DNA from: Octopus sinensis
Lineage: Eukaryota
Assembly (NCBI RefSeq): GCF_006345805.1
Contig: NW_021828721.1
Coordinates: 1-7,854, forward strand
Direction of reading: 5' to 3'
Length of the DNA stretch: 7,854 bases
Part shown: one piece after another, positions 3,379-7,854 of the stretch
Numbering within the stretch: the first letter of the stretch is position 1
How the letters are laid out: each line of letters begins with the position of its first letter
Notes under the pieces: generated by a model
What the model was told of the DNA's origin: nothing
Database searches by the model: none
What the model saw: the letters and a program-made list of their open reading frames with translations, nothing else
Position numbers and translations under genes: made by a program

Positions 3379-3574
3379 TCTTTCTACTGTAGCCCCAGGA
3401 AAGCCGAAATCTCGTGGAAGGGGACTACTCTACGATATCGACCCCAGTGCTTCACTGGTACTTATTTTATCGACATACAAAGGATGAAAGTCAAAGTCTA
3501 CCTCGACGTGATTTGGGTTCAGTACGTAAAGAGTCGGAAGAAATGACACTAAGCATTTCATCCGACACGTTAAC
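3379..3574 (-). mobile_element. SINE family B, diverged
   Basis: TTTCTACTGTAG...ATCGACCCCAGTGCTTCACTGGTACTTATTTTATCGAC...AGGATGAAAGTCAAAGTC...GAAATGACACTAAGCATTTC. Confidence 0.85.
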
Positions 3575-3583
3575 AACAACAAC

Positions 3584-3649
<66 letters not shown>
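3572..3649. repeat. (AAC)4(AAT)22 trinucleotide microsatellite
   Basis: Perfect run. It is the (ATT)n tail of the minus-strand SINE starting at 3650. Confidence 0.97.
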
Positions 3650-3847
3650 CTTTTCTACTAAAGGCACAAGGCTTGAAACTTTTAGGGAGAGGACTAGTCG
3701 ATTACATCGACCCCAGTGTTCAACTGGTACTTAATGTATCGATCCCAGAAGGATGGAAGGCAAAGCCGACTTCGGTGGAATTTGAACTCACAACGCAGCG
3801 ACGAGTGAAATGTCGCTAAGCATTTCTTTCAGGGTGTTAACGATTCT
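3650..3847 (-). mobile_element. SINE family B
   Basis: CTTTTCTACTAAAGGCACAAGGCTTGAAA...AGTCGATTACATCGACCCCAGTG...GGAATTTGAACTC (B-box GAGTTCAAATTCC on the minus strand)...GCTAAGCATTTC...TAACGATTCT. Confidence 0.9.
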
Positions 3848-4609
3848 TTTTTACTTTAGGCACAAGTCCCGAAATTTTGGGGGATGGGGCCAGTCGATTA
3901 CATCGACCCCATTACGCAACTGGTACTTAATTTATCGACCCTGAAAAGATGAAACGCAAAGTCGACCTCGGTGGTTGCAAAGTCTACCTCAAAACGTAAA
4001 GCCGGACGAAATACCTATTTCTTTATTGCCCACAAGGGGCTAAACATAGAGGGGACAAACAAGTACAGACAAACGGATTGAGTCGATTACATCGAGCCCA
4101 GTGCGTCACTGGTACTTAATTTATCGACCCCGAAAGGATGAAAGGTAAAGTCAACCTCGGCGGAATTTGAACTCAGAACGTAACGGCAGACGAAATACCT
4201 ATTTCTTTACTACCCACAAGGGGCTAAACACGGAGGACAAACAAGGACAGACAAACGGATTAAGTCGATTACATGGACCCCAGTGCGTCACTGGTACTTA
4301 ATTTATCAACCCCGAAAGCATGAAAAGTAAAGTCAACCTCAGCGGAATTTGAACTCAGAACGTAACGGCAGACGAAATACCTATTTTCTTTACTACCCAC
4401 ACAAGGGCTAACACAAGGACAAACAAGGACAGACAAACGGATAAGTCGATTACATGGACCCCAGTGCGTCACTGGTACTTAATTTATCGACCCCGAAAGC
4501 ATGAAAAGTAAAGTCGACCTCGGCGGAATTTGAACTCAGAACGTAACGGCAGACGATATACCGCTAAGCATTTCGCCCGGGGTACTAATGATTCTGCTAG
4601 CTCGCCGCC
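3845..4609 (-). mobile_element. multimeric SINE family B: head (4609-4563) + three ~182-bp units + terminal unit with a different tail (4015-3845)
   Basis: There is a single tRNA-like head, GGCGGCGAGCTAGCAGAATCATTAG, and four B-box-region/body segments. They are joined at identical AAAGAAATA|GGTATTTCGTC junctions. Confidence 0.88.
4016..4562. repeat. tandem repeat of 3 units (4016-4199, 4200-4381, 4382-4562; 184/182/181 bp)
   Basis: Each unit runs TATTT(T)CTTTA...GGACAAACAAG.ACAGACAAACGGAT...CCAGTGCGTCACTGGTACTTAATTTATC...GAACTCAGAACGTAACGGCAGACGA.ATACC. Confidence 0.95.
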
Positions 4610-4612
4610 GTC

Positions 4613-4630
4613 AATAATAATAATAATAAT
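4613..4630. repeat. (AAT)6
   Basis: Perfect run, forming the tail of the SINE at 4631-4841. Confidence 0.9.
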
Positions 4631-4841
4631 CCTTTCTGCTATAGGCACAAGGCTTGAAATTTTAGGGGAGGGGACTAGTCAATTACATAGACCCCAGTGT
4701 TTAACTGGTACTTAATTTATCGATCCTGAGAAGATGAAACGCAAAGTCGACCTCGGCGGAATTTGAACTCAGAACGTAAAGGCAGACGAAACAGCGCTAA
4801 GTCTTTTGCTTGGCGTGCTGACGATACTGCCTGCTCGCCGC
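4631..4841 (-). mobile_element. SINE family B, full-length monomer (~210 bp)
   Basis: Minus strand reads head GCGGCGAGCAGGCAGTATCGTCAGC, B-box GAGTTCAAATTCC, body, and tail CCTTGTGCCTATAGCAGAAAGG followed by (ATT)n. Confidence 0.92.
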
Positions 4842-5583: not shown

Positions 5584-5660
5584 GCAATAATAATTCTCTA
5601 AATGAGATATAGACAGTAACTGCTCCATATCATAAGGGACTAAAGCCATCTGAATATGGC

Positions 5661-5693
5661 TATATATATATACATATATATATATATACATAT
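5661..5693. repeat. (AT)n microsatellite
   Basis: Visible run abutting the LINE fragment. Confidence 0.9.
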
Positions 5694-5694
5694 G

Positions 5695-6191
5695 TTATTC
5701 GCCTGGGAAGATTTTGGCATTTATAGGCAGTGACTAGGTGACTGGCTGGTTTCCTGAAGTTAGTATTGCAAATCATAAGGTCATTTACATCGCAGAACTC
5801 CAGCAGCCTGTTTCCCTCCTCATTGCGGGAACCAAAACCATAGCCTCTAAGTACGCCATGGAAGCCTCCTGCATGTTGCCCAATATGTCCATTGAAGGCA
5901 CCAGCCACAAAGAGTAGGTCCCTGTCATTCATCAACGAGGTAATCTGCAAGATGGTGTCATAAAATCGGTGTTTCTGTCCCTCAGGTAACCCCGGCTGAG
6001 CGGGATAGGCCGAGATAATGGTTGCTAACCCACGATGAAGCACTAATCTAATCTTAAGTATTCTGTCTCATACTCTGACTACCTCGATTACCTTATCAAC
6101 CCATTTCTTCGCAGTTCCCTGCCCAGAAAATCTTGTACCTGTGTTCTTTGCCTTTGAGAAACCTAGCGGAACCTTCTCTCCACCTTACTTG
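5695..6191 (-). pseudogene. decayed non-LTR retrotransposon (RTE-like) AP-endonuclease (EEP) domain fragment
   Basis: Minus-strand translation gives QVRWREGSARFLKGKEHRYKIFWAGN / AKKWVDKVIEVVRV*DRILKIRLVL...IISAYPAQ...FVAGAFNGHIG...GYGFGSRNEEGNRLLEFC...LMICNTNFRKPASHLVT / INAKIFPGE. These are typical RTE EN motifs (SAYAPQ, GDFNGH, RNxEGxRLLEFC). The copy has a TGA stop at 6068-6070, a D>A change in GDFN, and frameshifting deletions near 6113 and 5728. Confidence 0.9.
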
Positions 6192-6302
6192 TTATATTTC
6201 GGAATGGTCATATAGCCAGTTTAGCCAAGAAAAACACACGCACTATATATATTTCAACACACAACTTCACATAAAAAATCTTGCACAACAAATATTTAAA
6301 CG

Positions 6303-6406: not shown

Positions 6407-6439
6407 CAAGGGTGAGACAAAATTTCAAACAAATTTATT

Positions 6440-7123
6440 TTGATATGGGGTAGGACTGCTTTGGCAGTAATTACAGCTTGAATTGTACGAGGTATGGACT
6501 CGTACAAAGTTTGAATTGTTTCCAAAGAAATTTTTGTCCATTCTTCAGCTAAAACAGTCTCCAGTTCTTGTAGTGATGATGGTGGAGGTTATCGACTCCT
6601 TACTTGTTTTTTTCTAAATGCACCATAAATGTTCAAGAATATTGCTATCTGTGGACTGTGGTTGCTAGATAAGATGTTCGACGTCACTAAAATGTTCCTC
6701 GTACGATTCAGTAACAACTTTAGCCGTGTGAAATGCTGGATTATCATACTGAAAGATTGCGTTTACCTCCGGAAACAGTTCCGCAACCATAGCATGAATT
6801 TGATCAGTTAAAATACTTAAATAGCCTTAACTATTAAATCTGCGATGAAGGGAAACCATTGGGCCGGCGGATTTGCAAGATATAGTCCCCCTCCTCCGCC
6901 CCAGATCATCATAGATCGTCCACCATGTTTAAGAGTTGGAAGAAGGCAGTCTGGGTCAAATGCTTCTTTTGTCTGTCTCCGCATATATACTCAGCCGGTG
7001 GTTGGAAAAAAGGTAAACGGATGACTCGTCCGAGAAAATAACATTCCATCACTGCTGTGGGGTTTTACCCAACTCTTGTTTTTTCTTTTCGTTTTCCCGT
7101 GTTTCGTCAAATTAAGCTGCAGA

Positions 7124-7166
<43 letters not shown>

Positions 7167-7541
7167 CGTCAATTCCTTTGAAACGATTGTTTTTAAAATA
7201 GTGGTTTTCTGATAGCAGCTCTCCCGTGAAATCCGGCTTTGTGCAGCTCCCGGCGAACAGCTTTTGCGGAAACTAGGTTCTTGAGGTGTACTTGGGAGCT
7301 GTACTTTCGTGATACTTTCTAACAATTCGCTTAAGGTTCCGACGGTCCCTATCTGAAAGTTTTGGTTTTCTTCCGGAGTTTTGTTTCGACGAGGAGGATT
7401 TTTTACCCTCTTTCTCAAAAGATATTACTTTCGAGACAGTACTTCTTGATGCACCAAACATTTCGGCTGTTTTCGTTACGCTAGCGCCTGCCATACGAGC
7501 ACCAACAACTTGACCTCTTTGAAGTTCGATAGATCTGTCAT
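6440..7541 (-). pseudogene. Tc1-like transposase pseudogene
   Basis: ATG at 7541 (MTDLS...RGQVVGARMAGASVTKTAEMFGASRSTVSKV, HTH), then SGRKPKLSDRDRR and TVRRELHKAGFHGRAAIRKP. Catalytic motifs are VIFSDES (D at 7028-7030), FQYDN (D at 6743-6745) and QSTDSNILEHLW (E at 6632-6634), with KHGG between the two aspartates. The C-terminus reads LYESIPRTIQAVITAK. There are multiple stops and frameshifts, and a minus-strand AATAAA at 6434-6439. Confidence 0.92.
7091..7166 (-). pseudogene. 76-nt 18S rRNA fragment inserted in the transposase
   Basis: Minus strand reads GAAACTTAAAGGAATTGACGGAAGGGCACCACCAGGAGTGGAGTCTGCAGCTTAATTTGACGAAACACGGGAAAAC. The conserved eukaryotic 18S is GAAACTTAAAGGAATTGACGGAAGGGCACCACCAGGAGTGGAGCCTGCGGCTTAATTTGACTCAACACGGGAAAAC, giving 4 differences. 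Confidence 0.93.
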
Positions 7542-7728
7542 TTTAATGAATTTTAACTACCTTTTTGTGATATCTGAAAAGAAACAGTAATTTTAGTAAG
7601 ACTTATTCAGCAGCACTAATAATAAATTTAAAAAAACATAAAAATAAACAAGTTTTGACGGTTTTACAGATATTTCAGAATTACGATGCTATAATGCTAG
7701 GAGTTTCCAGTATTTCGTCCGACCGCTG

Positions 7729-7854
7729 TATATATGTGTGTGTATATATATATATGCATGTATGTATATATAAATGTATGTATATGTGTGTTTATAGTAT
7801 GTATATATATATATGATATATATACATATATACATATATATATAATATATAATA
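7729..7854. repeat. (AT)n-rich compound microsatellite
   Basis: Visible runs to the end of the window. Confidence 0.95.

What the first reader, a model, noticed from the sequence alone, without database searches (positions are those of the whole stretch)
7101..7110. Mismatches at the m1acp3-pseudouridine site: possible fossil RT-misincorporation signature of mature rRNA
Seen: canonical TTTGACTCAAC reads TTTGACGAAAC here, with adjacent transversions at 7105 (T>G) and 7104 (C>A). The other two differences (7118, a CpG site, and 7123) are ordinary transitions. Established: the U in GACUCAAC is the hypermodified m1acp3-pseudouridine (yeast 1191, human 1248), which causes RT misincorporation and stalling. 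Inference: the insert was copied from mature modified 18S RNA rather than rDNA, so the genome records an RNA modification. With one copy this could be chance.
Basis: partly seen in the sequence, partly recalled or inferred. Interest (0 to 1): 0.85.

Follow-up and report, generated by a model that had tools for sequence, protein, structure and literature searches.

The report
Genome records ribosomal RNA base modifications
A 76-base scrap of 18S ribosomal RNA pasted into a dead transposon has a double change at a base that is chemically modified in other animals, and scattered 28S scraps in the same genome are changed far above background at another such base, so these changes are likely copying errors made when modified ribosomal RNA was reverse-transcribed into the chromosomes.

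Summary
A 76-nt host-type 18S piece (7091-7166, minus strand) sits in a decayed Tc1 transposon. It differs from host rDNA at four positions, including T>G at the m1acp3-pseudouridine position (7105) and C>A beside it (7104).

At this site alone the enrichment test is weak: 4 of 38 copies are changed, or 2 of 15 short fragments without the window (P 0.22 for any change, 0.04-0.05 for transversions).

A test fixed in advance at the 28S m3U base is strong. 11 of 27 fragments ending inside mature 28S are changed there (A7, G2, C2; 1.26 expected; P 6e-9), against 0 of 23 copies running into the spacer. One TSD-flanked copy starts exactly one base after m3U.

Against: the 28S m1A site shows nothing (1 of 27), one ITS1-bearing copy has G at the 18S site, and no read-level check was obtained.

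Likely mechanism: fragments of mature modified rRNA were reverse-transcribed as patches into DNA breaks. Odds are about 0.9 for the class and 0.7 for this copy. The scan earlier noted 18S retro-chimeras in other genomes, but not this signature. Eight paper searches showed no description of it.

The parts
6419..7735 (-). Decayed Tc1/mariner DNA transposon that hosts the insert; transposase frame broken by stops and frameshifts
   Evidence: HTH_28/HTH_23 hits on 7276-7542. 3536 candidates, 40 scored. 90.7% and 88.8% identical to the majority of 28 paralogs, which are 85-93%.
7077..7090 (-). 14-nt stretch absent from Tc1 paralogs, 11 of 14 A in rRNA sense, directly 3' of the 18S piece: likely a decayed A-tail or untemplated addition
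   Evidence: The tail reading is inference.
7091..7166 (-). 76-nt fragment of the host's own 18S rRNA (L035 1504-1579)
   Evidence: (94.7% to host copies, 88.2% to the foreign 18S type).
7105..7105 (-). T>G at the position equivalent to m1acp3-psi (human 18S 1248)
   Evidence: Site identity from recalled context.
7104..7104 (-). C>A at the base 3' of the modified U, which a reverse transcriptase copies just before reaching it; it lengthens an A run
   Evidence: Slip-at-stall reading is inference.
7118..7118 (-). G>A at a CpG: ordinary decay after insertion
7123..7123 (-). C>T transition, not CpG
7164..7179 (.). 16-nt exact re-copy of 7144-7159 at the 5' junction of the 18S piece. Its last 4 nt (7176-7179) are shared with the resuming Tc1 sequence. 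About 5 nt of Tc1 are lost and there is no target-site duplication.
   Evidence: Duplication check; junction against paralogs.

Best explanation
The insert is a piece of the host's 18S rRNA that was likely reverse-transcribed from mature, modified RNA and used to patch a DNA break in an old Tc1 copy, with the enzyme likely slipping and misreading at m1acp3-pseudouridine, so that the error became fixed in the genome. Shown: the fragment, its four differences, its junctions (no TSD, about 5 nt lost, 4-nt microhomology, 16-nt re-copy, A-rich 3' end), and a large excess of three different wrong letters at the 28S m3U position in other short fragments of this genome. Inferred: an RNA template for this copy, that this animal's rRNA carries these modifications, and repair at a break. 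Not known: the enzyme (LINE reverse transcriptase without its endonuclease, or polymerase theta).
For: (1) m3U position: 11 of 27 fragments ending within mature 28S are changed (A7, G2, C2). Expected from each copy's own divergence: 1.26, P 5.8e-9. The next-highest of 182 neighbouring positions has 6 of 26 (a CpG) and the rest at most 4. 0 of 23 spacer-bearing copies are changed (Fisher 3.5e-4). On chromosome-scale contigs only: 9 of 24. (2) The nine marked copies tested have different breakpoints and unrelated flanks, apart from one shared 72% repeat; L102 has 0 other differences in 169 core bases. (3) L186 starts at +1 of m3U between 17-bp TSDs. L089 starts at +1 of the 18S site and has an internal inversion. 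RT stops at +1 of m3U in flies. (4) All four changes at the 18S site are transversions (G, G, A, A); with the window counted, no other T among 75 has as many transversions. (5) Genes matching the SPOUT1/Ptch and TSR3 families lie on chromosome-scale contigs. (6) m1acp3-psi and m3U give multi-letter RT mismatches in RNA and not in DNA (PMC8336963 section 6).
Against: The 18S site alone is not significant for any change once the window is removed: 2 of 15 short fragments, P 0.22 (transversions only 0.035-0.05). One ITS1-bearing, rearranged copy family (L047) has G at the 18S site, which mature RNA would not explain (0.33 expected by chance in 15 such copies). The 28S m1A site, equally RT-mutagenic in human RNA-seq, shows 1 of 27 and no cluster of starts at +1, although an RRP8-family gene is present. 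The m6,2A pair shows 0 and 1 of 39. None of the 11 marked 28S fragments has a TSD. The spacer-bearing controls are young (0.13 changes expected), so their 0 of 23 is weak by itself. The window is a whole 7.9-kb unplaced contig and its letters are unchecked against reads.
Confidence: 0.7

Rival explanations
1. Chance: the fragment (copied from RNA or from rDNA) came in with the normal letters, and a double mutation, or an error of repair synthesis, later hit 7104-7105.
For: One copy, picked because it looks striking. The 18S site is not significant for any change without it. L047 shows that an ITS1-bearing copy can carry G here. The junction (microhomology, re-copy) would also fit DNA-templated end joining.
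Against: Only 2 other differences in the 76 nt, both transitions. T positions in short 18S fragments change at 19 of 501 cells (10 transversions). The m3U result means at least 11 of 27 short 28S fragments carry a visible mark, so the prior for an RNA origin is high.
Confidence: 0.19
2. Assembly or consensus error on a short unplaced contig; the change can also be read as T>G plus a one-base slip in an A run.
For: The contig is 7854 bp and unplaced. No second haplotype copy was found.
Against: The Tc1 on this contig is no more diverged than chromosomal paralogs. The m3U excess persists on chromosome-scale contigs (9 of 24). The fragments keep CpG decay, which polishing with rRNA reads would be expected to erase (inference).
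Confidence: 0.08
3. The fragment comes from a symbiont, parasite or prey 18S that natively reads GACGAAAC.
For: The assembly does contain a second, foreign rDNA on unplaced contigs.
Against: All 8 foreign 18S loci have T at the site. The insert is 94.7% to host and 88.2% to foreign. A figure title in bioRxiv 10.1101/840132 calls the base absolutely conserved in Eukarya.
Confidence: 0.01
4. The 28S signal is a DNA mutation hotspot of the GGGTTT context or an old rDNA variant, not an RT signature, and the window is unrelated to it.
For: GG[T] cells change more often than other T cells (14 of 146 against 108 of 2270). Two of the 11 changes are to G and lengthen a G run; L187 also has an extra G.
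Against: 10 of those 14 GG[T] changes lie at two expansion-segment positions with mostly one shared letter. The same context on the other strand changes at 2 of 138. Even at the GG[T] rate P is 2e-4 for the 9 of 24 then counted. Three different letters occur, A most often. The U is described as universally conserved.
Confidence: 0.05

Closest known systems
Class 2 templated sequence insertions (TSI/TSIP): RNA-derived patches at double-strand breaks (Onozawa and Aplan, PMC5110952; passages read)
   Same: Short copy of a distant sequence, no TSD, microdeletion, microhomology and added bases at the junctions; proposed to arise by reverse transcription.
   Different: The passages seen do not mention rRNA (0 hits for 'rRNA' or 'ribosom') and infer the RNA origin from other evidence. 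Here the insert sequence itself carries a mark of an RNA template. The window insert also has an A-rich 3' end, which class 2 lacks.
Tailless retropseudogenes and 28S/LINE-1 chimeras (PMC5322556, PMC13174262; passages read)
   Same: Fragments of 18S or 28S rRNA copied into animal genomes by LINE machinery.
   Different: Those carry TSDs or a fused LINE part; the window insert and the 11 marked 28S fragments have no TSD. Word searches of these two main texts found no discussion of modified bases or misincorporation. Their supplements were not seen.
RT misincorporation signatures of m1acp3-psi 18S:1248, m3U 28S:4530 and m1A 28S:1322 in RNA-seq (bioRxiv 10.1101/840132, PMC8336963, PMC10245971, bioRxiv 10.1101/648345; passages)
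   Same: Same sites, several wrong letters per site, stops at +1.
   Different: Those are made in vitro by laboratory enzymes and are absent from DNA; here they appear fixed in genomic DNA. The m1A site gives no signal here.
Polymerase theta RNA-templated repair (PMC8195485; abstract only)
   Same: A repair enzyme able to copy RNA into a break; microhomology and local re-copying fit its recalled footprint.
   Different: No test here separates it from a LINE reverse transcriptase.

Membership tests
Class 2 templated sequence insertion | No target-site duplication | tested here: met
   Junctions against Tc1 paralogs.
Class 2 templated sequence insertion | Microdeletion, microhomology or added bases at the junctions | tested here: met
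   About 5 nt lost, 4 nt shared, 16-nt re-copy. The empty site is inferred from paralogs, not from an allele.
Class 2 templated sequence insertion | No poly(A) tract | tested here: inconclusive
   A 14-nt stretch, 11 of 14 A, lies 3' of the piece.
Class 2 templated sequence insertion | Inserted at a double-strand break | not testable with these tools
   Inferred from the junctions only.
LINE target-primed retrocopy (class 1 TSIP, tailless retropseudogene) | Target-site duplication | tested here: not met
   None at the window insert; 0 of 11 marked 28S fragments. Present at L186 and L067.
LINE target-primed retrocopy (class 1 TSIP, tailless retropseudogene) | 3' A-tail or internal priming at an A-rich stretch | tested here: inconclusive
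   A-rich 14 nt; L056 ends at the same 18S base with a similar A-rich run.
RT signature of a base-pair-disrupting modification | Several different wrong letters at one position | tested here: met
   m3U: A7, G2, C2. 18S site: G2, A2.
RT signature of a base-pair-disrupting modification | Position is an outlier against neighbours | tested here: inconclusive
   Met at m3U, weak at the 18S site, not met at m1A.
RT signature of a base-pair-disrupting modification | Absent from DNA-derived or precursor-derived copies | tested here: inconclusive
   0 of 23 at m3U with low power; 1 of 15 at the 18S site.
RT signature of a base-pair-disrupting modification | The base is modified in this organism's rRNA | not testable with these tools
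   Only family matches for the writer genes.
RT signature of a base-pair-disrupting modification | Spectrum matches RNA-seq errors at the site | not tested
   No reads were examined.
Dispersed rDNA-unit copy (orphon) | Continues into ETS, ITS or IGS | tested here: not met
   The insert is 76 nt inside mature 18S; true unit copies exist elsewhere in the genome.

The most novel reading that the evidence does not exclude
Animal genomes hold a readable fossil record of RNA base chemistry. Fragments of mature ribosomal RNA are copied into germline DNA breaks by an endogenous enzyme that misreads N3-blocked uridines (m3U, m1acp3-psi) but not m1A. Dispersed copies could then map and date RNA modifications from DNA alone, prove an RNA template for single insertions, and fingerprint the enzyme in vivo, possibly a repair polymerase rather than a retroviral-type RT.
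Probability: 0.6. Interest if true: 0.85.

Novelty: new variant of a known kind. Interest (0 to 1): 0.72.

Why it matters
Whether TSD-less insertions at breaks are copied from RNA or DNA is hard to prove for any single germline event. A modification-induced error is an internal tag that only a mature RNA template can give. The m3U result implies that at least 11 of 27 short 28S fragments here came from modified rRNA, and none of those 11 has a TSD. It makes three questions testable by computation on existing assemblies: how often RNA patches germline breaks, which lineages carry a given modification and since when, and which enzyme does the copying (the m3U-positive, m1A-negative pattern is a fingerprint to match in vitro). 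The window's own insert is almost certainly functionless.

Tried and rejected
Idea that the 'mismatches' are just transposon flank at the insertion boundary: rejected, because 13 more 18S bases follow and Tc1 paralogs lack them.

Whole-window Rfam scan: did not list the 18S piece, only microsatellite matches; the local scan found it. A 13-letter pattern search was too short, with matches at control level.

m1A and m6,2A tests: negative. TSD search: negative for marked fragments (its hit at L118 is a microsatellite).

First 28S reference (L141) had private differences that inflated the background; redone with L095.

Clustering of fragment 3' ends at the modified bases (L229 and L231 at -1 of m3U; L054, L078, L087, L088 within 3 nt of the 18S site): seen, but the numbers are small and the searches were anchored there, so it is not counted as evidence.

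Sequencing runs: no RNA holder listed. No read-level result was obtained, which leaves the assembly letters and the RNA error spectrum open. No second haplotype of the contig was found.

Papers: a recalled study of N1-methyladenine and N3-methylthymine mutagenicity in DNA was not held. One DOI fetched an unrelated paper.

Full report
Setting. The window is the whole of contig C5192 (7854 bp) of a 2.72-Gb genome in 13,516 contigs. It is repeat-rich. The SINEs and the long GC-rich 18S look octopus-like to me; that label is recalled and comes from no call. Bases 6419-7735 are a decayed Tc1/mariner element on the minus strand. It is 90.7% and 88.8% identical to the majority of 28 paralogs, which themselves range from 85 to 93%.

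The observation. A local Rfam scan finds eukaryotic SSU rRNA on the minus strand. The genome's own 18S was taken from L035, which runs on into ITS1, 5.8S and 28S. Window 7091-7166 equals L035 1504-1579 except at 7123 (C>T), 7118 (G>A, CpG), 7105 (T>G) and 7104 (C>A). The piece is host-type: 94.7% to host copies and 88.2% to a second, foreign 18S found on unplaced contigs. All 8 foreign loci keep T at the site.

Anatomy. The 29 paralog loci aligned (one, L030, is unrelated over this part) lack the insert. In rRNA sense the order is: Tc1; a 16-nt re-copy of the fragment's own 7144-7159, sharing 4 nt with the Tc1; the 76-nt 18S piece; 14 nt with 11 A; Tc1 again. About 5 nt of Tc1 are missing and there is no TSD. 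This resembles class 2 templated insertions, described as reverse-transcribed patches at breaks (PMC5110952, passages), except for the A-rich end.

Census at the 18S site. Five searches (the DNA searches scored 40 of 49, 67 and 44 candidates) gave the loci aligned. I dropped 8 foreign loci, 5 duplicates (L048, L072, L090, L091, L062), and copies that do not span the site by 6 nt or delete it. Of 38 left, 4 are changed: window G, L047 family G, L066 A, L083 A. Without the window it is 3 of 37: P 0.037 against other T cells, 0.007 for transversions, 0.14 when weighted by each copy's divergence. Among short fragments (under 700 nt) it is 2 of 15: P 0.22 for any change, 0.035-0.05 for transversions. 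The young subset gives 2 of 9, P 0.016, but that cut was made after seeing the data. L047 contains ITS1 sequence, so it counts against a mature template or is chance (1 of 15, 0.33 expected). This site is suggestive only.

Independent test. Human rRNA has three strongly RT-mutagenic bases: m1acp3-psi 18S:1248, m3U 28S:4530 and m1A 28S:1322 (PMC10245971 passages; PMC8336963 passages and section 6). I noted the prediction for m3U and m1A before searching. The m3U is the first U of GGGUU at the peptidyl transferase centre; it is present in fly, mouse, frog and human, absent in yeasts, and stops RT at +1 (bioRxiv 10.1101/2024.06.27.600882, passages). A 31-letter host pattern with the site inside gave 47 matches, 8 changed at the site, two of them duplicates of each other. 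Sorted by whether a copy runs into the 3' spacer, this was 7 of 19 against 0 of 22.

Completed m3U census. Flank-only patterns added copies, and a DNA search added none in its top 40 of 77 candidates. I dropped one duplicate (L108) and four foreign loci; three foreign-type hits were not fetched. The final count is 11 of 27 (A7, G2, C2) against 1.26 expected, P 5.8e-9, and 0 of 23 in spacer-bearing copies, Fisher P 3.5e-4. On chromosome-scale contigs it is 9 of 24. Of 182 neighbouring positions the next has 6 of 26 (a CpG) and the rest at most 4. L187 aligns with an extra G as well, so its call is less certain. Sequence context does not explain the excess, and the nine marked copies tested have unrelated flanks. 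L186 begins at +1 of m3U between 17-bp TSDs. L089 begins at +1 of the 18S site and is internally inverted.

Negative results. At 28S m1A (position assigned from recalled numbering) 1 of 27 copies starting inside 28S and 0 of 12 longer ones are changed, against 2.0 expected; the two neighbouring A's show no excess and starts do not cluster at +1. At the 18S m6,2A pair, 0 and 1 of 39 unsorted matches are changed. These also show that the centre of a search pattern is not enriched by artefact. Family matches for SPOUT1/Ptch, TSR3 and RRP8 all lie on chromosome-scale contigs, so a missing writer gene does not explain the m1A blank. Possible reasons, all untested: the enzyme reads m1A correctly, it stops there, or the base is unmodified. 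I recall that in DNA N3-methylthymine is read mostly as A while N1-methyladenine is bypassed accurately, which would match; that paper was not held. None of the 11 marked 28S fragments has a TSD. The spacer-bearing copies are young and partly related, so the within-fragment comparison carries the weight.

Mechanism. A broken piece of mature rRNA, perhaps with an A-tail, was likely annealed at a DNA break and copied 3' to 5'. In the window, the new strand has one extra T where G was due, just before the modified base, and then C opposite it; a stall with slippage is my reading. Copying went on for 61 nt, slipped back to re-copy, and joined the other end through 4 shared bases. Two transitions followed as ordinary decay. 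The enzyme could be a LINE RT without endonuclease or polymerase theta (PMC8195485, abstract); nothing here separates them.

Novelty. rRNA retro-fragments are known (PMC5322556, PMC13174262; passages), and so are RT signatures in RNA-seq (bioRxiv 10.1101/840132 and 10.1101/648345; passages). Eight searches of the held library (listings and abstract starts only) showed no paper reporting such signatures fixed in genomic copies. Subscription journals and supplements were not seen, so prior description cannot be excluded. Earlier scan notes list 18S retro-chimeras in other genomes but no modification signature.

Verdict. The class-level claim is well supported by m3U (about 0.9). The claim for this copy is likely (about 0.7) but rests on that prior and on letters not checked against reads.

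Noticed in passing
L058-L060, L074, L076, L079, L080, L085 (18S); L120, L121, L123, L124, L181 (28S): A second, compact rDNA type on unplaced contigs, about 80% identical to the host's; second TSR3- and RRP8-family hits also lie on unplaced contigs. Likely a co-assembled parasite or symbiont.
   Followed up: partly
L229 and L231 (28S); L054, L078, L087, L088 (18S): Several fragments end within 3 nt of the modified base. L229 and L231 both end at -1 of m3U and continue GT. Unexplained; may reflect RNA breakage at the modified base.
   Followed up: partly
L089 (G000:C4:88583637 region): 57-nt 18S piece starting at +1 of the m1acp3-psi position, first half in sense and second half inverted, between (TA)n runs; looks like twin priming.
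   Followed up: partly
L092:4872-9184: About 4.3 kb interrupts the 28S gene of a dispersed rDNA unit, and many copies align only from about 950 nt upstream of m3U; possibly an R2-type element.
   Followed up: no
L032-L051, L061-L065, L095, L129-L141: About 20 long, young rDNA-unit pieces are scattered over many chromosomes, several with internal deletions (L055, L061/L062, L063, L065).
   Followed up: partly
28S positions +77 to +144 from m3U: Older fragments share the same alternative letters in this expansion segment, so they probably preserve an earlier state of the host rDNA.
   Followed up: no
window 3892-4562: Tandem array of 3.7 units of 182 bp, 90% alike, related to dispersed repeats at 3380-4830.
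   Followed up: no
window 5660-6193: High-copy repeat (4301 candidates) with a 135-codon open frame on the minus strand that looks like a LINE endonuclease piece from recall; no Pfam match.
   Followed up: partly
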